DNA from: a virus
Virus genome (UHGV): UHGV-0076293
DNA length: 64,000 nucleotides
Direction: 5' to 3' (one strand)
Made by a program: the position numbers and the translations under genes. Positions 30,912-40,254 of the stretch are shown piece after piece (positions within the stretch are counted from its first letter, which is position 1; every line of letters starts with the position of its first letter). The notes beneath the pieces are model-generated. The model was not told the DNA's origin, did not search any database, and saw only the letters and a program-made list of their open reading frames with translations.

Positions 30912-32045
30912 ATGTCAACGTTAGATAGCGACTTAGAAGTGCTTTGTGACGATTACGACCGACTCGTAGCGTTAGAATCCATTGGAGTAAAAGACAATTA
31001 TCCGGCTATCGTTGCTATCCGTAAACGTTGGCTTTTGGATGATGTGGTTGTTGCGTCAGAGTCTGCGGCCATGATGCATCGTGCGCAGTTTTTGTCAGAC
31101 ACGGAACCTGATAAAGGGATTGGCAAAGCGGCGGCGCGACTCACCGGTCGTGCGGTTCGTGGCGTAAGTCGGGTAGCAGGACGTGCTGCCAGTGCAGGTG
31201 CAAAAGCATCAGCGAACTTTGCAGGTAAACATTCCAAACAACTTGCTTTACGTTTTGTGGATTTTGCTGAGGCTGCCGGTAAAGAAGTCATTAAGGAATT
31301 AAAAGAAGCGACGTCTAAAACGACGACCTTAGAACGCAAACTGCAAAAGTTAACCGCACGTCTAAGTTTAATCGGTGACAAAGACACTTTAAAACCGGTT
31401 GACTGCGACACGGGAAGTTGGACGACCAAAGTCTGTTTAGAAGACAAACCTAACGTAAAAGCATGTATTGAGTTCAGTAAGAACCTGAACGCAATGGATG
31501 CGATGGTCAACGAGTATACCGTTAAAACACGCACCATTATCGGTAAGAGCAAGAAAGTTACCGAGAGTGGTTTGGAGAAAGTAGGCCGGTCAACGAACTG
31601 GGCGATTAAACGTAGCGCAGGATTGTTCGGTATTATTGATCCGTTTAAAACGGTGAAAGCATATCCGTGGCCAGGTAACGTGGTGGTCGTTGAACACGAC
31701 AGCGGTAAGATTGAGTGGGCGATTGCCCGTGATGGTGATTTTGGCCACACAATCAAATCGCTGAACTTACACGAAATCGGTTCAGCACTCGATGCCGTTA
31801 GAAACATTATCCGTGCTTTACGTCAGCGTGGTACGAAACGACGTAGCGTTGGTTATACCGGTATTTACGATGAAATTCAGCGAATGAAAAAAGAACTGAA
31901 ATCGTTAGACGGTCGTGAGTTACGTGACGCTACCGTTCGGTATAAGAACGCACTGCGTTTAGAAGATGCGTTTACTACCTCGTTAGTGCGTGTTGCGGAA
32001 GGCTTACTGGAATGGTGCAGGTTGTCGCTGATTGAGGTTAAATAA
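30912..32045 (+). CDS. hypothetical protein (377 aa)
   Basis: long ORF with Ala/Arg-rich N-terminal region; the antisense 269-aa ORF inside it is rejected. Confidence 0.7.
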   Translation: MSTLDSDLEVLCDDYDRLVALESIGVKDNYPAIVAIRKRWLLDDVVVASESAAMMHRAQFLSDTEPDKGIGKAAARLTGRAVRGVSRVAGRAASAGAKASANFAGKHSKQLALRFVDFAEAAGKEVIKELKEATSKTTTLERKLQKLTARLSLIGDKDTLKPVDCDTGSWTTKVCLEDKPNVKACIEFSKNLNAMDAMVNEYTVKTRTIIGKSKKVTESGLEKVGRSTNWAIKRSAGLFGIIDPFKTVKAYPWPGNVVVVEHDSGKIEWAIARDGDFGHTIKSLNLHEIGSALDAVRNIIRALRQRGTKRRSVGYTGIYDEIQRMKKELKSLDGRELRDATVRYKNALRLEDAFTTSLVRVAEGLLEWCRLSLIEVK

Positions 32046-32512
32046 TGCGTATCACTATTATTCTCAAACCCGACAGTAAATACGGAAAGTTATACGGCGA
32101 CCAGGTACTCAAACTGCACAACATGCTGTTCGCAGAAGAGAAAGTGCGTATTAGTCAGTTAACCGGCCGTGACACGTTCAACCCCATCGAACGTTTAGAA
32201 GAGATTTGGCCTCAAGATTATCTCTGTGCGTGTGCGGTAGGTGACAACGAACAGCTTCTGGGATTTATGACGTTCTCATTGGGTTCTTGCTCAAAAGACA
32301 CGTTTGTTTACATCGGGAATTACTATGTGATTCCTGAAGCACGTTCTCAAGGGGTAGGGCGTGCGCTTATGGACAAAGTCCGTGAATACGGAAAGTCCAA
32401 AGGTTGTGGTTGGATGAGTCTGGATGTGTTAGACAACAACGTTAAAGCTATCTCCTTGTATGAGAAAATGGGATTCCGTACCGAATGCAGGGAAATGATA
32501 AAGGAAATCTAA
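32045..32512 (+). CDS. GNAT family N-acetyltransferase
   Basis: motif A-like RSQGVGRALMDKV and C-terminal LYEKMGF. Confidence 0.7.
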   Translation: MRITIILKPDSKYGKLYGDQVLKLHNMLFAEEKVRISQLTGRDTFNPIERLEEIWPQDYLCACAVGDNEQLLGFMTFSLGSCSKDTFVYIGNYYVIPEARSQGVGRALMDKVREYGKSKGCGWMSLDVLDNNVKAISLYEKMGFRTECREMIKEI

Positions 32513-34050: not shown

Positions 34051-34088
34051 CCCCTACCGTTAGGTAGGGGCGGGTTTCTTTTTTATCC
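34051..34088 (+). terminator. intrinsic terminator (repeat-family hairpin)
   Basis: CCTTACCCCTACC-GTTA-GGTAGGGG followed by a T-rich stretch; near-identical hairpin recurs at 34813. Confidence 0.75.
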
Positions 34089-34812: not shown

Positions 34813-34848
34813 CCCCCTACCTTCGGGTAGGGGTTATTTAATTTTTTC
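34813..34848 (+). terminator. intrinsic terminator (repeat-family hairpin)
   Basis: CCCTTACCCCCTACC-TTCG-GGTAGGGG followed by a T-rich stretch. Confidence 0.75.
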
Positions 34849-34923: not shown

Positions 34924-35283
34924 ATGGCTTACAATCACAACTCTATTGTTTTAGCAAAACGTAAATTCGGTCTTCATCTTTCTTACGTGATTCGTCATTT
35001 GACAGCGAAAGACATTACGCAGCGTGAACTTGCCCAGCTTGCGAAAGTTTCACAACCGGTTATCTCATCTATTAAGAACGATCGCAGCGAACGCCTGAGT
35101 CTCCCAATAATGATGAAGGTTGCTGATGCGATTCGTCTGAAATATCAGATTACGTTTAATTCTGTTAAAGGGCGTTGCTCAGTAACGGTTCACGTAGAGT
35201 CTGCGTTGGACTACGTTGCAAATACGTCCCTTAAACGTACAGCGAAGAATATTCGTTTTGTTACTAACAGCGCAACACACTAA
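34924..35283 (+). CDS. XRE-family helix-turn-helix DNA-binding protein
   Basis: ITQRELAQLAKVSQPVISSIKN is a canonical HTH; first ATG (track starts at a TTG at 34897); directly downstream of promoter motif copy 2. Confidence 0.65.
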   Translation: MAYNHNSIVLAKRKFGLHLSYVIRHLTAKDITQRELAQLAKVSQPVISSIKNDRSERLSLPIMMKVADAIRLKYQITFNSVKGRCSVTVHVESALDYVANTSLKRTAKNIRFVTNSATH

Positions 35284-35304
35284 TCAACCTAAAGGAGTAT
35301 TATC

Positions 35305-35988
35305 ATGGCACCGAAAACTAAGAAAACTGAAGTTAAAGAAACTGTAGAAAAACCGGTTGATGCTAAGGAAGCAGAAGTTAAGCAGACTGAGCCTAGCAAG
35401 AAGCTTGCGCTTATGCCGCCTGCCACAGAAATACACGGGGATAAAATCTTAAGTTACACTCCGCGTGCGAGTTTAACGATCGATATTTACCATTACCCGG
35501 TATTCGACTTGTACACGCTTGTCTGTCGACTCGACGATGAGGTACTGGCAGTCGTTCCTGGTATCCACAAAGAAAAACTGCTTACGGGTTCAGTCATTAG
35601 CGAGATTTTCCTGCGCTTGATGTTTAAATCAGACGATAAGAGGATCAGCCAGATTGCTAGTAAATTGGCTGACTTCTTTGTTGAGGCTTCAACGTGGTTA
35701 GGCTTTCACCCAACGGCTTATTTCATTTTCGACACCAAAATGTTGTATGCTGAAATGGGCGATAGTGTTAAGTATCCTATCTTACTTAATGAAGAAGTCG
35801 TTCCGTTTTCCCTTTCCAGTCCTAACAAACATCTTCGCTTTCATCCGGCGTTAGAAAGCCTGATCGAATACCAACGGTTGGAAAAATATTACGCTTATCA
35901 TCGCATGTTCTTTGAGCTTCTGCGTGATAAATTAAGAGGCAAAGTTCCAGATTCTAGTGTATCGTTCACTAGTTCTAAGCTTTGGTAG
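35305..35988 (+). CDS. hypothetical protein (227 aa)
   Basis: AAGGAG RBS; Lys/Glu-rich N-terminus. Confidence 0.7.
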   Translation: MAPKTKKTEVKETVEKPVDAKEAEVKQTEPSKKLALMPPATEIHGDKILSYTPRASLTIDIYHYPVFDLYTLVCRLDDEVLAVVPGIHKEKLLTGSVISEIFLRLMFKSDDKRISQIASKLADFFVEASTWLGFHPTAYFIFDTKMLYAEMGDSVKYPILLNEEVVPFSLSSPNKHLRFHPALESLIEYQRLEKYYAYHRMFFELLRDKLRGKVPDSSVSFTSSKLW

Positions 35989-35997
35989 TTTGTAACA

Positions 35998-36028
35998 AAC
36001 AGGGAGCTTCGGCTCCCTTTTTCTTTTT
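35998..36028 (+). terminator. intrinsic terminator
   Basis: AGGGAGC-TTCG-GCTCCCT followed by a T-rich stretch. Confidence 0.8.
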
Positions 36029-36074
36029 ACAACTTTTTCTTTTGTTGTGAGGAAAGCCGATAAGGAGTATTAAA

Positions 36075-37061
36075 ATGGTATATCGTAAAACGATAGAAAG
36101 AACCTCTTCTGATTTAACAGTAGGACGCTTAGCCCGTAGAGATATTCGCAATCCTCAACTTCAGGCATGTTTAATGGGTCCTAACGGTGCGGTGATTCGT
36201 GAAGCACTGTGTAATACCGAGCTGAATACGTTCTCTTTACAAAAAGGAAAAACAATCCAAGGGTTTATCATCACAAAACACATTTACGGTGATCCAACGT
36301 TACACTGCTTGTATATGCACGAAATTGTACCAGGCTGTTTGAACAAACTGAGTCTTCTATTGGTACTTGACTATACGGGTTTTACGTACCTTAACCGAAT
36401 TGCCAGAGGCGTGGAAGAAATTGCTGAGCTTAACGATTTAGGGTTTAGACATACCCACACAGCATATCGTTTAGGTACACGTACGCTATCGGATGTCACT
36501 TTACCGACGAACGTGAAGAACGTCTCCGGCGACTTCTATAAAGACTTAACCGGAGCACAACGTGAGCAGCTCATGACATTGTTTGGCACTAGTGTCGTTG
36601 AAAATATCAATGCTGACCCTGTAACGCGTTCTCGACAAATAATGCCGCAAGTTGAAACATTGGTGGAGTTAGTGCGGCACGTCAATCACTACACTTACGT
36701 TTGGATGGGCGGTAATGACGTTGTGGGTGTGGTGCAAGTTAAATCACGTAATCTTAGTGAGTGCGAACTAAAAGCCATTGCGGTAAGTGAATCACACCGG
36801 GGCCGTGGGATTGGGCGTGCGTTGCTGTATCGTGCTTTACAGATTGCATCGACAACAGCGGCACCATTAGAAATAGGGTGTTACAATAACAATTCAGCAT
36901 TTAGACACCTGGCTGTAGATTTGTTTAAATTCCGTCCCTACGAGTACGAATTTGTTTTAGTGCGCGACGACGATGTCGTCAGTTGGGAGCGTCGGAAAAA
37001 CCGCGTCGCGTTAGTGTTAGGCGACGAAATGTCAACGTTACAAGGCGGAATTAATGCATAA
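36075..37061 (+). CDS. two-domain protein with C-terminal GNAT acetyltransferase fold
   Basis: C-terminal AVSESHRGRGIGRALLYRAL (GNAT motif A); about 200-aa N-terminal domain of unknown function; overlaps the Dam start. Confidence 0.6.
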   Translation: MVYRKTIERTSSDLTVGRLARRDIRNPQLQACLMGPNGAVIREALCNTELNTFSLQKGKTIQGFIITKHIYGDPTLHCLYMHEIVPGCLNKLSLLLVLDYTGFTYLNRIARGVEEIAELNDLGFRHTHTAYRLGTRTLSDVTLPTNVKNVSGDFYKDLTGAQREQLMTLFGTSVVENINADPVTRSRQIMPQVETLVELVRHVNHYTYVWMGGNDVVGVVQVKSRNLSECELKAIAVSESHRGRGIGRALLYRALQIASTTAAPLEIGCYNNNSAFRHLAVDLFKFRPYEYEFVLVRDDDVVSWERRKNRVALVLGDEMSTLQGGINA

Positions 37062-37869
37062 ACCAATTATAAAGTGGATGGGTGGCAAATCGCGGATCAT
37101 CGACACCTTACTACAAGTCTTACCTGAACGTACAACATTCGTTGAACCGTTTGTTGGTGCAGGGTCGGTGTTTTTGAACACACGTTATAAACGTTACATT
37201 CTTGCTGACTCTAACCCTGACTTAATACAGTTGCTGAACGTGGCGAAAGACCAACCTGAAGAACTTATCTTAAAGTCGAAACCGCTATTCGAAGACGGTA
37301 ACGATTGTATTAAGTATATGGAGAGACGAGAACTGTTTAATCGCGAAACGGATATGGCTCCGTTAGACCGTGCTGCAATGTTTCTGTACTTAATGCGTCA
37401 CGGTTTTAACGGGATGTGTCGTTACAACGGCAGCGGGGGGTTTAACGTTCCGTTTGGTCGCTATCCTAACGGTGTGTATTACCCGTTAGAAGAGATTCGT
37501 GGTTGGGCTAAACGTTGTCAAGAACCGGAATACTTAGAAATTGTTTGTGAAGATTTCCGAACAGTTTTAGAGCGTACACCGGAAGACAGCGTGATTTACG
37601 CAGACCCACCTTATATACCGCTCTCAGAGACCGCTAAACACGCCCAATACCATCGGAAGGAGTTTTCCCAGGCTGACCATCGGGAACTCGCCAGAGCGCT
37701 GTTTAAGCAGGTTGAGAAGGGGAATAGCGTTGTGTTGTCCAATGCAGATACGTTACTAACGCGTGAGATTTATTACGGGTTCGAATGGCGTTCTGTGGAA
37801 GTAGGGCGGTATATGGGTGCATCGGGCGCTGCTCGTAAAACGGTAACGGAATTGTTAGGAGTGCTCTAA
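37054..37869 (+). CDS. dam: Dam-type DNA N6-adenine methyltransferase
   Basis: KWMGGK, VEPFVGAGSVFLNT, YILADSN and catalytic DPPY motifs match E. coli/T4 Dam almost residue for residue. Confidence 0.9.
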   Translation: MHKPIIKWMGGKSRIIDTLLQVLPERTTFVEPFVGAGSVFLNTRYKRYILADSNPDLIQLLNVAKDQPEELILKSKPLFEDGNDCIKYMERRELFNRETDMAPLDRAAMFLYLMRHGFNGMCRYNGSGGFNVPFGRYPNGVYYPLEEIRGWAKRCQEPEYLEIVCEDFRTVLERTPEDSVIYADPPYIPLSETAKHAQYHRKEFSQADHRELARALFKQVEKGNSVVLSNADTLLTREIYYGFEWRSVEVGRYMGASGAARKTVTELLGVL

Positions 37870-38642
37870 TGCGTATAGTGGATATCCACGATTATCGTAA
37901 TGACCATTTAGCGATTGGTGTAGAAGGTAAAATGGTTTCGTTAACCCGTGTACGTAAAGGGTTAATGGAAAAGGAAATCATTCGGGAATCTGAAGACCCT
38001 ACCTTTATCATCCTTTCGAATACTAACCAGTTACAGGGCATCTTTTCAGGGCGTGCAGACGGTAAGATTTTCTATATGTCCGCGATCGTTGTGTTTGCGA
38101 AGAAGAACATCAACTTCGCCCAACTCAAACGTTTGTTAAACGTGAAGATGTTCGATGTCACGTACCCTGCTAACGACCTAAAACGTCGTAATCAATTAAT
38201 GACGTTTTTAGGTATGCAACCAACGTCTATCGATTATGACCTTACGATTACTGAAAAGCCGGAAGTGCGCACTGACTTACCTGACGTAGACGATGTTGAA
38301 TCCTTAACGTTAGAAGAGACGTTTACGATTCCTAAGGTTGTTAATGTCAACCTGGACACGCACTGTTTAGGGTTGTTAGCCGTAGGTGCAGCAGAAGGGT
38401 TGTGTTGTCGTAAAGACGGTAAGGTTGAAGGTATCTTAGTCTATTCGAAAATCAACGAAAAGACATTTGCCACCGAAGGCTTTTTCTATAACGATTGCAC
38501 TTACGGAAACGCTCTACTAACCACGTATTTCCGTATTGCTTATCTGAAAGGCGCAACTGTACGCCTCACGTTTCCATACACAGCTCCACCGTCTATGGGT
38601 GGAGTTGAGGTAGAAGCATTAACCGGTCACTTTATCTTTTAA
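37869..38642 (+). CDS. hypothetical protein (257 aa), third gene of the GNAT-Dam operon
   Basis: TAATG overlap with dam. Confidence 0.65.
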   Translation: MRIVDIHDYRNDHLAIGVEGKMVSLTRVRKGLMEKEIIRESEDPTFIILSNTNQLQGIFSGRADGKIFYMSAIVVFAKKNINFAQLKRLLNVKMFDVTYPANDLKRRNQLMTFLGMQPTSIDYDLTITEKPEVRTDLPDVDDVESLTLEETFTIPKVVNVNLDTHCLGLLAVGAAEGLCCRKDGKVEGILVYSKINEKTFATEGFFYNDCTYGNALLTTYFRIAYLKGATVRLTFPYTAPPSMGGVEVEALTGHFIF

Positions 38643-38651
38643 GGATGATGA

Positions 38652-38879
38652 ATGGAAATCAAACGTATTGTAACCAAAAACAAACAGATTGTTTACGTCG
38701 CAGGTGATAACGAATTCTCGGCGGTAATTAACAGCGAAAATGCGCTCATTATCGGTTATCCGGGTAAAGTTATTACGCGCAGTCACCAACGTGCGATTGA
38801 CAAACTTATCGCGAAAGCGAAAGCGCGCGACGGTGTTGGTTCAGTACAAACCCACACAGGGTTAACGCTGACCCTCTAG
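38652..38879 (+). CDS. hypothetical small protein (75 aa)
   Basis: AGGATGATGAATGG RBS region. Confidence 0.6.
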   Translation: MEIKRIVTKNKQIVYVAGDNEFSAVINSENALIIGYPGKVITRSHQRAIDKLIAKAKARDGVGSVQTHTGLTLTL

Positions 38880-38918
38880 TCAGCAGGTAATATGACCTCT
38901 TAACTGGAGACTTTAATA

Positions 38919-39425
38919 ATGAGTGAGACTCTGGATTTTAATCAGCTCGAACAACACGATTTCGATCTCGGTGTTCGTGATATCGATGCTGATCATGAAA
39001 CACGTTGTAAAGAGCTGTTTAACCGTTACGGTCAGCTCATCACCGGTGCCTCTGATGACACCGAATTCAGTTTAGATGAGTTTGAAAAAGTTTTGTCGTG
39101 TTTTATCACCGATTGCCTGGCGAAGAAAGCGTTACTGGTAGAACTGAACTTAGACTCCGTCGAACCTACCGATGCCCACGCGGTGTTGAAAGAATCCATT
39201 ATCCCAACTGATGAGATTATGGACACGGTAGCAGGTATTCGTGGTACGTTTGAAACCGCTGTAGATGAATACACGGAACAGCTTCGTGAGTCAGGACTGA
39301 CGTTGTGTGCGCCAGCAGGCGAGCAATTACCGTCCGACGCAGAAACTGAAGAAGCGCGTAGCCGCTTAGCACGTTATGTTATCACGTCTATCTTGGTAGA
39401 TGATCGCGAAGAGAATCTGCTGTAA
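38919..39425 (+). CDS. strongly acidic small protein
   Basis: 168 aa with very high Asp/Glu content and few basic residues. Confidence 0.65.
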   Translation: MSETLDFNQLEQHDFDLGVRDIDADHETRCKELFNRYGQLITGASDDTEFSLDEFEKVLSCFITDCLAKKALLVELNLDSVEPTDAHAVLKESIIPTDEIMDTVAGIRGTFETAVDEYTEQLRESGLTLCAPAGEQLPSDAETEEARSRLARYVITSILVDDREENLL

Positions 39426-39428
39426 GCT

Positions 39429-39466
39429 GCCCCCTCTCTCCAGACGGAGAGAGGGTGTATTTTTTA
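39429..39466 (+). terminator. intrinsic terminator (repeat-family hairpin)
   Basis: CCCCCTCTCTCC-AGAC-GGAGAGAGGG followed by a T-rich stretch; near-identical hairpin at 40214. Confidence 0.8.
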
Positions 39467-39520
39467 CGCGTATAGCCGTAGTTATGCACAAGTAAACAAA
39501 ATTAATTGAGGAACAATCTG

Positions 39521-39838
39521 ATGTGGTTAAGTGCTATTCATCGCGATTTACCGAAAACGGCAGTGAGTTTTGCTAAGAAAACTCCTGTTCCTAACGTTGG
39601 TGTTGCTAAATTTGAACGAGTGGAAGAGGGGCAATTCGTTGTAACGGATCATAAAGAAAACGAATTTATGTTGTATCATCCAGAAGTGGATACCTCTGAA
39701 ATTTGTGAGGGTGTTTTTTTATTGTCCTGGCAAGACCCTGAAACTAAAGAGTGGAAGTGGTGCACCGCTAAACCATTAAAAGAAATCGAAAACGGTTATG
39801 GGATTGGAGAGATTTATGTCGAACCAGAACCACACTAA
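39521..39838 (+). CDS. hypothetical protein (105 aa)
   Basis: first ATG with GAGGA RBS (track starts at a TTG at 39506). Confidence 0.6.
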   Translation: MWLSAIHRDLPKTAVSFAKKTPVPNVGVAKFERVEEGQFVVTDHKENEFMLYHPEVDTSEICEGVFLLSWQDPETKEWKWCTAKPLKEIENGYGIGEIYVEPEPH

Positions 39839-39879
39839 TTTCGATATAACTTCAGCATTGTGTTGTTAACGGTCTAAAA

Positions 39880-39920
39880 AATTTAAGATATATTTCATCT
39901 ATGTGAGAATTCTCACTTAA
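39880..39920 (+). promoter_or_regulatory. phage promoter-like element with downstream 5'-UTR hairpin (copy 3, variant)
   Basis: AAGATATATTTCATCTATGTGAGAATTCTCAC; perfect GTGAGAA/TTCTCAC palindrome. Confidence 0.5.
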
Positions 39921-39939
39921 CTAAATGGAGTAATCTAAA

Positions 39940-40209
39940 ATGGCTAAGATTTACATTGTTGAAAAACGTTCAGGTAATGTTCTTTCTTATCACGAAGAAG
40001 GCAAACCCGAAAGAGTTAAAACGCTCAAGCTTGAAGGTTTTGATGTGAAAAGCCTGCGTAAAGGCGTGAAGATTACTTTCAAAGGTTTGATTCGTGCAAG
40101 TAACTTACACATCATTAAAACGGACGGAACGATGGTTGCATTAGCACCGGCTACCGCTGCGAAAACGACAGCCGGTCGGGGTTGCTACGGCAGCAGTCGT
40201 AAGATTTAA
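39940..40209 (+). CDS. hypothetical small protein (89 aa)
   Basis: GGAG RBS, downstream of promoter motif copy 3. Confidence 0.6.
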   Translation: MAKIYIVEKRSGNVLSYHEEGKPERVKTLKLEGFDVKSLRKGVKITFKGLIRASNLHIIKTDGTMVALAPATAAKTTAGRGCYGSSRKI

Positions 40210-40213
40210 GCAG

Positions 40214-40254
40214 TGCCCCTCTCTCCTAGCGGAGAGAGGGTACTTTTATTTTTC
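40214..40254 (+). terminator. intrinsic terminator (repeat-family hairpin)
   Basis: CCCCTCTCTCC-TAGC-GGAGAGAGGG followed by a T-rich stretch. Confidence 0.8.

What the first reader, a model, noticed from the sequence alone, without database searches (positions are those of the whole stretch)
36075..38642. Translationally coupled operon: GNAT-domain protein, Dam methyltransferase, unknown protein
A 328-aa protein with an unknown N-terminal domain fused to a C-terminal GNAT fold overlaps the start of a canonical Dam-type N6-adenine methyltransferase (KWMGGK, FVEPFVGAGSV, DPPY). A 257-aa unknown protein follows with a TAATG overlap. Phage Dam enzymes protect against restriction. Co-transcription with an acetyltransferase and an unknown partner suggests a coupled nucleic-acid or protein modification (anti-defence) module.
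Basis: partly seen in the sequence, partly recalled or inferred. Interest (0 to 1): 0.55.

Follow-up and report, generated by a model that had tools for sequence, protein, structure and literature searches.

The report
Jumbo-phage Dam flanked by double-GNAT proteins
This is a tightly packed gene block in an SPN3US-like giant phage: an ordinary Dam-type DNA adenine methylase sits between two fast-evolving proteins that both have a double acetyltransferase (GNAT) fold, and the arrangement is already annotated in relatives with no evidence that the three work as one machine.

Summary
Three ORFs (36075-37061, 37054-37869, 37869-38642) overlap by 8 nt and 1 nt.

- **g2** is a Dam-family N6-adenine methyltransferase. 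It is 43% identical to E. coli Dam, keeps the GATC-contact residues, and has no nuclease partner nearby.
- **g1** is a tandem GNAT, not an unknown domain fused to a GNAT. It has a degenerate N-lobe and a canonical acetyl-CoA-motif C-lobe.
- **g3**, the "unknown" protein, models as a divergent double-GNAT fold without the CoA motif (moderate model confidence).

Conserved terminator hairpins at 36001 and 39432 bound a five-gene unit, not three.

The window is an uncultured ~225-kb relative of Salmonella phage SPN3US, where the same genes are gp104-gp105-gp106. The order g1-Dam-g3 recurs in Seoulvirus, Machinavirus and two uncultured lineages. However, the whole region is collinear, so this does not show coupling. 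Erwinia phage phiEaH2 keeps Dam-g3 with no g1. Dam is conserved like the neighbouring TMP kinase (64-73%), whereas g1 and g3 are the fastest-evolving genes (22-28%).

A coupled modification module is therefore not supported; an orphan Dam plus independent, host-facing GNAT-fold proteins fits better. GATC is depleted about two-fold across the lineage. Interest is modest.

The parts
36001..36031 (+). Intrinsic-terminator-like hairpin (GGGAGC-UUCG-GCUCCC) plus T-run. It ends the upstream unit and marks the 5' boundary of the g1 unit.
   Evidence: Found by the terminator scan. dG is -13 kcal/mol with z=-5.1 against shuffles. It is conserved in relatives with a compensatory change, GGGAAC...GTTCCC.
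36075..37061 (+). g1: 328-aa tandem-GNAT protein. The N-lobe (about aa 14-133) is degenerate. The C-lobe (about aa 189-296) is canonical, with the acetyl-CoA motif R242-G-R-G245-I-G247. The C-terminal tail (aa ~300-328) is predicted disordered and carries a conserved VSWxRxKNR motif. An AAGGAG ribosome-binding site sits 7 nt upstream.
37054..37869 (+). g2: 271-aa Dam-family (D12 class) N6-adenine DNA methyltransferase, predicted to target GATC, and orphan (no adjacent nuclease).
   Evidence: Pfam MethyltransfD12 E=1e-57. NCBIfam TIGR00571 'dam' scores 254.7 bits against a cut-off of 114.85. PADLOC orphan MTase E=9e-87. E=1e-63 to E. coli Dam structures and 1.8e-41 to DpnM. 43% identity to E. 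coli Dam. 68% to SPN3US gp105 and 73% to phiEaH2 Dam.
37869..38642 (+). g3: 257-aa divergent double-GNAT-fold protein. No acetyl-CoA motif is recognisable in either lobe. It is the homologue of SPN3US gp106.
38652..38879 (+). 75-aa basic ORF (pI 9.9) starting 9 nt after g3. It is the homologue of SPN3US gp108, has unknown function, and lies in the same unit.
   Evidence: phrog_7896 E=3e-21. 41-47% identity to SPN3US and phiEaH2 homologues.
38919..39425 (+). 168-aa very acidic ORF (pI 4.16, net charge -25). It is the homologue of SPN3US gp109 and the last gene of the unit.
   Evidence: phrog_8221 E=9e-56. 40% identity to SPN3US gp109.
39432..39465 (+). Strong intrinsic-terminator-like hairpin (10-bp stem CCCTCTCTCC/GGAGAGAGGG) plus T-run. 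It marks the 3' boundary of the unit.
   Evidence: Found by the terminator scan. dG is -22.3 kcal/mol with z=-5.5. In relatives the stem is invariant and the loop varies.

Best explanation
This is a segment of the conserved non-structural gene block of an SPN3US-like (phiKZ-type) jumbo phage. A five-gene unit bounded by intrinsic terminators is probably read as one transcript, with translational coupling at g1/g2 and g2/g3.

- g2 is a solitary Dam-family enzyme that transfers a methyl group from SAM to N6 of adenine in GATC on phage DNA. Family membership and conserved contact residues are shown; the target sequence is inferred.
- The most likely benefit of Dam is that progeny genomes stay fully GATC-methylated. 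Rapid replication, probably inside a chimallin compartment that excludes host enzymes, would otherwise outrun or escape host Dam. Full methylation would avoid DpnII/MboI-type restriction and MutH nicking. This step is inferred.
- g1 is a tandem GNAT of the MshD/VipF type. The degenerate N-lobe probably shapes the acceptor site, and the C-lobe binds acetyl-CoA and acetylates an amine on a host or phage protein or a small molecule. The fold and motif are shown; the substrate is unknown.
- g3 has the same double-GNAT architecture but lost the CoA-binding loop. It is therefore either non-catalytic (a binder or decoy) or uses a non-canonical donor.
- g1 and g3 are the fastest-evolving genes of the block, as expected for host-facing factors. 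They act independently of Dam; the adjacency reflects inherited collinearity rather than an obligatory three-part machine.
For: - Dam identity. The alignment to E. coli Dam conserves positions K9, N120, R124, P134, R137 and Y138, with Y119F and L122M. Motif I (FVGAGS) and DPPY are also present.
- g1 tandem GNAT.
- g3 double-GNAT fold. It lacks the CoA motif.
- Unit boundaries. Junctions and ribosome-binding sites.
- Collinearity with SPN3US gp100-gp110 and with Erwinia phages.
- g1 is dispensable: phiEaH2 has Dam and g3 but no g1.
- Rate contrast: TMPK 64%, Dam 68-73%, g1 28%, g3 22-24%.
- No nuclease partner, and no defence-family hit for g1 or g3.
- SPN3US has a chimallin homologue and a shell-like lattice (PMC9365700).
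- GATC avoidance in enterobacteriophages linked to methyl-directed mismatch repair is established (references in PMC5014478).
Against: - No methylation, expression or localisation data exist for any member of the lineage.
- Sequence-level relatedness of g1 and g3 is not significant: BLASTP E=0.035, hhalign probability 0.2-1.2%.
- Dam-g3 adjacency is kept in every lineage seen, so a Dam-g3 functional link cannot be excluded.
- GATC is about two-fold depleted across the lineage. A protective self-methylase does not simply predict this.
- Chimallin was not looked for in this window, so the nucleus-forming lifestyle is extrapolated from SPN3US.
Confidence: 0.6

Rival explanations
1. One reading: g1, Dam and g3 form one coupled modification or anti-defence module. 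Their products act together on the same target, either phage DNA or a host defence protein, and co-translation ensures stoichiometry.
For: - Overlapping stop and start codons at both junctions.
- The same order in the window clade, Seoulvirus, Machinavirus and two uncultured lineages.
- Dam-g3 adjacency is never broken.
- g1 and g3 share a fold and flank Dam symmetrically.
Against: - The whole neighbourhood is collinear, so the synteny is not specific to the trio.
- phiEaH2 lacks g1 but keeps a 73%-identical Dam.
- Evolutionary rates are discordant.
- Overlapping codons are common in densely packed phage genomes; for example, the 155-aa GNAT at 32045 overlaps the preceding gene in the same way.
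- There is no independent co-occurrence outside this lineage: exhaustive searches found g1 and g3 only within it.
Confidence: 0.18
2. The Dam is mainly an epigenetic or replication-packaging signal writer rather than an anti-restriction device, as with P1 Dam at pac or Dam-dependent gene regulation. The remaining GATC sites are functional marks, and the neighbours are unrelated.
For: - Strong conservation of Dam across genera, 49-73%.
- Lineage-wide GATC depletion: observed/expected is 0.19-0.67, and the window has 124 sites against 193 +/- 14 in dinucleotide-preserving shuffles.
- SPN3US-type phages already shield DNA in a chimallin shell, which reduces the need for anti-restriction methylation (PMC9365700).
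Against: - No striking GATC clusters were seen in the window; there are only two loose 4-site clusters near 56.7 kb and 60.2 kb.
- Dam is no more conserved than the TMP kinase next to it.
- Depletion is equally explained by the known mismatch-repair or restriction counter-selection.
- Only one 64-kb window was examined.
Confidence: 0.2
3. g1 and/or g3 are Mom-like nucleobase acyltransferases that further modify adenine in DNA. Dam either competes with them or primes the substrate.
For: - Mom of phage Mu belongs to the GNAT superfamily, and other GNATs are predicted DNA-base acylases in jumbo phages (PMC7824862).
- The genes are adjacent to a DNA adenine methylase.
- g1 is mildly basic (pI 8.7) with a conserved basic tail.
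Against: - g1 matches only generic acetyltransferase profiles. Its closest structures are protein or small-molecule N-acetyltransferases: RimI, NatD, MshD, AAC(6'), polyamine acetyltransferase.
- g3 lacks a CoA site.
- g1 is absent from phiEaH2.
- The jumbo-phage survey describes Mom domains as typically fused to nucleases, which is not the case here.
Confidence: 0.04

Closest known systems
Salmonella phage SPN3US gp104-gp105-gp106 (SPN3US_0104-0106), and the same genes in Erwinia Machinavirus and Seoulvirus phages
   Same: These are orthologous genes in the same order, inside the same collinear block from TMP kinase and the HTH regulator to the small downstream genes. They are annotated as a putative GCN5-related N-acetyltransferase, a putative DNA adenine methylase and a hypothetical protein.
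   Different: g1 and g3 are only 28% and 24% identical. The window's clade lacks the extra gp107-like gene after g3. No DNA-level match to any deposited phage was found.
E. coli Dam, T4 Dam and DpnM (GATC-specific D12-class N6-adenine methyltransferases)
   Same: Full-length alignment at 43% identity to E. coli Dam. Motif I and DPPY are present, and the residues at the EcoDam DNA-contact positions are conserved. Like Dam, it is solitary.
   Different: It falls below the NCBIfam equivalog cut-off for E. coli Dam (255.6 against 441 bits). It is encoded by a virulent jumbo phage whose genome is GATC-depleted.
Tandem-GNAT enzymes: mycothiol synthase MshD, Legionella VipF, M. abscessus MAB_4324, Eis
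   Different: Sequence identity is only 10-13%. No substrate-specific residues could be transferred. g3 has no CoA motif in either lobe.
Phage GNATs that modify host proteins (for example phiKMV Rac acting on the RNA polymerase alpha subunit)
   Same: A phage-encoded GNAT that is plausibly host-directed. This is the role proposed for jumbo-phage GNATs in general (PMC7824862; PMC13282480).
   Different: No specific sequence relationship to Rac was tested. Rac-type proteins are single-domain, whereas g1 and g3 are double-lobed.

Membership tests
Dam family / D12-class N6-adenine DNA methyltransferase (g2) | Profile match above the curated threshold (Pfam PF02086; NCBIfam TIGR00571 'dam' subfamily) | tested here: met
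   PF02086 scores 195.9 bits against a cut-off of 22. TIGR00571 scores 254.7 bits against 114.85.
Dam family / D12-class N6-adenine DNA methyltransferase (g2) | SAM-binding motif I (FxGxG) and catalytic motif IV (DPPY) | tested here: met
   FVGAGS and DPPY are present and aligned with those of E. coli Dam.
Dam family / D12-class N6-adenine DNA methyltransferase (g2) | Residues at the EcoDam GATC-contact positions (K9, N120, L122, R124, P134, Y138; their roles are recalled from the EcoDam-DNA structures, not tested here) | tested here: met
   The alignment conserves K, N, R, P and Y. L122 is replaced by M; from my own knowledge, T4 Dam also has M at this position.
Dam family / D12-class N6-adenine DNA methyltransferase (g2) | m6A actually placed at GATC in DNA | not testable with these tools
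   This needs DpnI/DpnII/MboI digestion or SMRT/Nanopore sequencing.
E. coli Dam equivalog (NCBIfam NF008152) | Score above the equivalog cut-off | tested here: not met
   255.6 bits against a cut-off of 441. g2 is a family member but not the host orthologue.
Type II restriction-modification system | A cognate restriction endonuclease gene next to the methyltransferase | tested here: not met
   The neighbours are GNAT-fold proteins and small ORFs with no nuclease profile. The best PADLOC model for g2 is 'orphan methyltransferase'.
GNAT superfamily acetyltransferase (g1 C-lobe) | Profile match above threshold and the Q/R-x-x-G-x-G/A acetyl-CoA pyrophosphate-binding loop | tested here: met
   PF00583 scores 42.6 bits against 20.7. 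The loop is R242-G-R-G245-I-G247. G247 is invariant in the family, but G245 is replaced in the Erwinia lineages.
GNAT superfamily acetyltransferase (g1 C-lobe) | GNAT fold | tested here: met
GNAT superfamily acetyltransferase (g1 C-lobe) | Acetyl transfer to a defined acceptor | not testable with these tools
   The substrate is unknown. The structural neighbours span protein N-termini, aminoglycosides, polyamines and mycothiol.
Tandem (double) GNAT-fold proteins (MshD/Eis/VipF/NMT/Fem type) | Two consecutive GNAT lobes in one polypeptide | tested here: met
Tandem (double) GNAT-fold proteins (MshD/Eis/VipF/NMT/Fem type) | At least one lobe has a recognisable acyl-CoA binding loop (g3) | tested here: not met
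   No conserved glycine-rich loop is present at either beta4-alpha3 junction in the 14-sequence g3 family alignment. There are no Pfam or PDB sequence hits.
Mom-type DNA adenine acyltransferase | Specific sequence or structure similarity to Mom, and the nuclease fusion that the jumbo-phage survey describes as typical of jumbo-phage Mom domains | tested here: not met
   Only generic GNAT profiles match g1, and none match g3. There is no nuclease domain. The jumbo-phage Mom architecture is described in PMC7824862.

The most novel reading that the evidence does not exclude
Dam and the invariably adjacent g3 (with g1 as an optional third member) could form a functional unit specific to enterobacterial nucleus-forming jumbo phages. 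In this reading a fast-evolving, CoA-motif-less double-GNAT protein either uses a non-canonical donor, as Fem/MprF/NMT-type double GNATs do, to modify DNA, Dam itself or a host sensor of methylated or unmethylated GATC, or it acts as a decoy for such a sensor. Combined with lineage-wide GATC depletion, GATC methylation status would then be a contested signal between these phages and their Dam-positive hosts.
Probability: 0.1. Interest if true: 0.65.

Novelty: new member of a known kind. Interest (0 to 1): 0.3.

Why it matters
As it stands, the finding mainly improves annotation. Two 'unknown' pieces, the g1 N-terminus and g3 (SPN3US gp106, phrog_9941), can now be labelled as GNAT-fold lobes. 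The locus is a five-gene unit, and the Dam is an orphan GATC-type enzyme.

It also raises a modest biological question. SPN3US has a chimallin homologue and a shell-like lattice, so phages of this type probably hide their DNA in a protein shell. It is unclear why the lineage keeps a well-conserved Dam while halving its GATC content, and why that Dam sits among the fastest-evolving acetyltransferase-like genes. If the GNAT-fold proteins turn out to target host factors or defence systems, they would add to the short list of phage acetyltransferase effectors. At present nothing demonstrates this.

Tried and rejected
- Megablast of 35000-40000 against deposited phages found no match, so relatives had to be found at the protein level.
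- Sequence tests for g1/g3 paralogy were not significant: BLASTP E=0.035; hhalign probability 0.2% and 1.2%.
- The gp107-like family compared with the g3 and g1 profiles gave probability 3-4%. SPN3US gp107 compared with the g3 profile gave 0.1%. The gp106/gp107 BLASTP comparison (run on the RefSeq-tagged CDSs) was also not significant. The 'array of double-GNAT paralogues' therefore rests on fold hits only and is not claimed.
- The window's 227-aa upstream gene has no BLAST similarity to SPN3US gp103. The gp103-like alignment was not pursued further.
- A PDB profile search with the g3 family found nothing. Pfam on gp103-, gp106- and gp107-like proteins from four lineages found nothing. PADLOC had no hit for g1, g3 or the small ORFs.
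- I nearly took 'gp160, >300 copies per capsid' (PMC5694885) as a statement about the g3 homologue. The RefSeq tag ACQ60_gp160 is not the literature's gp160; in literature numbering the homologue is gp106. The lead was rejected.
- gp103-gp107 are not mentioned in the main text of the SPN3US papers checked: gp104-gp107 in PMC5105663 and PMC7411985, gp103-gp107 in PMC5694885.
- The sigma-70 promoter scan was not above chance (18 found, 16 +/- 4.7 expected). It is also not relevant for phages that carry their own RNA polymerases.
- The metagenome and IMG/VR scans with the g3 profile returned only the known lineages.
- Literature searches found no functional or methylation data for these genes.
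Full report
**Observation.** The g1/g2 junction reads ATGCATAA, an 8-nt overlap. The g2/g3 junction reads TAATG. g1 has a strong AAGGAG ribosome-binding site and g3 an AGGAG site. The quoted Dam motifs are present. Profile searches confirm a D12-class adenine methyltransferase for g2 (Pfam E=1e-57). They also confirm a GNAT domain in g1 residues 199-275 (E=8e-11). g3 has no Pfam hit. All three belong to PHROG families.

**What genome this is.** There is no DNA-level match to any deposited phage. At the protein level, g1 and g3 hit SPN3US-like Salmonella, Escherichia and Proteus jumbo phages and Erwinia jumbo phages at 21-29% identity. The window also encodes several jumbo-phage hallmarks:
- a 761-aa major head protein;
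- a phiKZ-type internal head protein;
- a DnaB-like helicase, a polymerase and virion proteins.

Near-identical copies of the locus lie on metagenome contigs of about 222-228 kb. One contig, OBXH01000029.1, is 100% identical over all three genes. The window therefore comes from an uncultured jumbo phage of about 225 kb that is distantly related to SPN3US.

**The methyltransferase.** The evidence that g2 is a Dam-family enzyme is consistent across methods:
- It aligns end to end with E. coli Dam structures (E=1e-63) and with DpnM (E=1.8e-41).
- It is 43% identical to E. coli Dam.
- It passes the curated NCBIfam 'dam' subfamily cut-off but not the E. coli equivalog cut-off.
- Its best PADLOC match is the orphan-methyltransferase model.

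In the alignment, the positions that contact GATC in EcoDam are conserved or conservatively replaced: K9, N120, R124, P134 and Y138 are kept, Y119 becomes F and L122 becomes M. The roles of these residues are recalled from the published EcoDam-DNA complexes. GATC specificity is thus a strong inference, not a demonstration. No neighbouring gene resembles a nuclease.

g3 has no glycine-rich CoA loop at either beta4-alpha3 junction. It does retain invariant polar residues: S50, N51, R88, E203, Y192, Y212 and H254. At the sequence level, relatedness between g1 and g3 is not significant. Shared fold is therefore supported, but paralogy is only a possibility.

The full-length g1 architecture is rare. 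An exhaustive profile search of 1.84 billion representatives found 8 with E below 1e-10, one of them a fragment, all of this type. The g3 family is equally narrow.

**Transcription unit.** A UUCG-loop hairpin followed by a T-run lies at 36001-36031. It is much more stable than shuffled controls (z=-5.1) and is conserved in relatives with a compensatory stem change. The next strong + strand terminator-like hairpin is at 39432-39455 (dG -22.3 kcal/mol, z=-5.5). Its stem is invariant in relatives and its loop varies. Between the two lie five closely spaced genes: g1, g2, g3, a 75-aa basic ORF starting 9 nt after g3, and a 168-aa very acidic ORF (pI 4.16, net charge -25). Co-transcription remains inferred.

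**Is the trio a functional module?** The order g1-Dam-g3 recurs in several lineages:
- the window's own clade;
- SPN3US, as SPN3US_0104, 0105 and 0106 in literature numbering;
- another Seoulvirus and Machinavirus phages;
- an IMG/VR lineage and the most divergent g1 relative found.

The whole block is collinear, from TMP kinase and the HTH regulator through at least five genes beyond g3.

Two observations argue against obligatory coupling. First, Erwinia phage phiEaH2 has the closest Dam (73% identity) and an unambiguous g3 homologue right after it (hhalign probability 99.9%). Yet only about 200 bp lie where g1 would be, and phiEaH2 is absent from all 48 phage records with a g1 hit at E<=1e-3. 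Second, divergence is very uneven. Identity to the SPN3US/phiEaH2 homologues is:

| Gene | Identity |
|---|---|
| TMP kinase | 63-64% |
| Dam | 68-73% |
| Small downstream genes | 40-59% |
| g1 (SPN3US only) | 28% |
| g3 | 22-24% |

. The two GNAT-fold genes are the fast-evolving outliers, a pattern typical of host-interaction factors. The Dam behaves like a housekeeping enzyme. Dam-g3 adjacency is never broken in the loci seen, so a Dam-g3 link cannot be excluded.

**Mechanism proposed.** I take g2 to be an orphan GATC methylase acting on replicating phage DNA. SPN3US has a chimallin homologue and a shell-like lattice (PMC9365700). If this phage also replicates inside such a compartment, host Dam would presumably be excluded. 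A phage-encoded enzyme would then be the only way to keep progeny DNA methylated. That would protect against GATC-specific restriction and MutH-type nicking. These steps are inferred.

I take g1 to be an active acetyl-CoA-dependent N-acetyltransferase with an MshD/VipF-like division of labour between its lobes. Its structural neighbours do not identify the substrate; it could be a protein N-terminus, a lysine or a small amine. g3 is either a non-catalytic double-GNAT scaffold or uses a non-CoA donor. Comparative-genomics reviews assign jumbo-phage GNATs a host-takeover role by analogy with phiKMV Rac (PMC7824862; PMC13282480). I found no experimental data on these particular genes.

**A side observation.** GATC is clearly under-represented in the window. 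There are 124 sites, against 268 expected from a maximal-order Markov model. Dinucleotide-preserving shuffles give 193 +/- 14 (z about -5). Among 4-mer palindromes only CTAG is comparably depleted. Depletion is shared by every related locus examined:

| Loci | GATC observed/expected |
|---|---|
| Window's clade | 0.34-0.67 |
| SPN3US (L001, L009, L014) | 0.35-0.38 |
| Other SPN3US-like and Erwinia jumbo-phage loci | 0.19-0.37 |

phiEaH2 and the L015 lineage are both at 0.25. The GTAC control stays near 1 in the SPN3US and Erwinia loci (0.85-1.04). It is somewhat lower in the window's clade (0.65-0.83) but within noise in the shuffle test. GATC counter-selection in enterobacteriophages is a known phenomenon (references in PMC5014478). 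Its coexistence with a conserved phage Dam is mildly paradoxical and was not resolved here.

**Verdict.** The 'coupled anti-defence module' interpretation is only partly supported. The locus is a new, divergent member of an arrangement already annotated in SPN3US-like phages. The added value is the fold assignment of g3 and the g1 N-lobe, the five-gene unit, and the phiEaH2 counter-example.

Noticed in passing
whole window 1-64000; also loci L001-L016: GATC is about two-fold under-represented although the phage encodes a Dam. There are 124 sites, against 268 expected under a Markov model and 193 +/- 14 in dinucleotide-preserving shuffles. Depletion is lineage-wide: observed/expected is 0.19-0.67, and 0.25 in phiEaH2. 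The GTAC control is about normal in the SPN3US and Erwinia loci and somewhat lower (0.65-0.83) in the window's clade.
   Followed up: partly
window 38919-39425 (+): The 168-aa product is extremely acidic (pI 4.16, net charge -25). It belongs to phrog_8221, is the homologue of SPN3US gp109, and is the last gene of the same terminator-bounded unit as the Dam. Its composition is reminiscent of DNA-mimic anti-restriction proteins, but this was not tested.
   Followed up: no
window 32045-32512 (+), with 30912-32045 (+): A second, single-domain canonical GNAT (155 aa, motif QGVGRAL) has a start codon that overlaps the stop of a phiKZ internal-head-protein-like gene (Pfam phiKZ_IP). The phage therefore carries at least three GNAT-fold genes within 7 kb.
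   Followed up: no
window 37054-37869 compared with L003, L007, L008, L021-L024: Between the two sub-clades of the window's own lineage, Dam is less conserved (82-84%) than g1 (86-91%) and g3 (89-91%). This is the reverse of the long-range pattern and may indicate recombinational replacement of the Dam gene.
   Followed up: no
window 36975-37061 (g1 residues ~300-328): The C-terminal tail of g1 is predicted disordered (pLDDT below 50). It nevertheless carries a basic motif, VSWxRxKNR, that is conserved across genera. This could be a targeting or interaction signal.
   Followed up: no
L001 7493-8305 (SPN3US gp107); L002 6786-7583; L016 5692-6462: SPN3US-like and most Erwinia relatives have an extra gene of about 245-270 aa directly after the g3 homologue, and the window's clade lacks it. 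Foldseek with the g3 model hits a 256-aa phiEaH2 protein (J7KKF1), which matches the length of this gene. It also hits proteins of about 215 aa that may correspond to the gene upstream of g1. This hints at an array of double-GNAT-fold genes. Sequence profiles do not confirm it.
   Followed up: partly
window 34051-34070 and 34814-34833; 39432-39455 and 40217-40240: The terminator-like hairpins come in pairs with near-identical stems. CCCCTACC...GGTAGGGG occurs twice and CCCTCTCTCC...GGAGAGAGGG occurs twice. This suggests that terminator modules are duplicated or conserved between units.
   Followed up: no
window 35305-35988 (+): The 227-aa gene upstream of g1 has a lysine/glutamate-rich, low-complexity N-terminus of about 45 residues. 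It has no detectable homologue in SPN3US by BLAST, although it occupies the position of gp103.
   Followed up: no
L001 versus L014 (SPN3US NC_027402 versus JN641803): The RefSeq locus tags (ACQ60_gp160 and so on) run opposite to the SPN3US_0xxx numbering used in the literature. The abundant virion protein called 'gp160' in PMC5694885 is therefore not the g3 homologue, which is gp106.
   Followed up: yes
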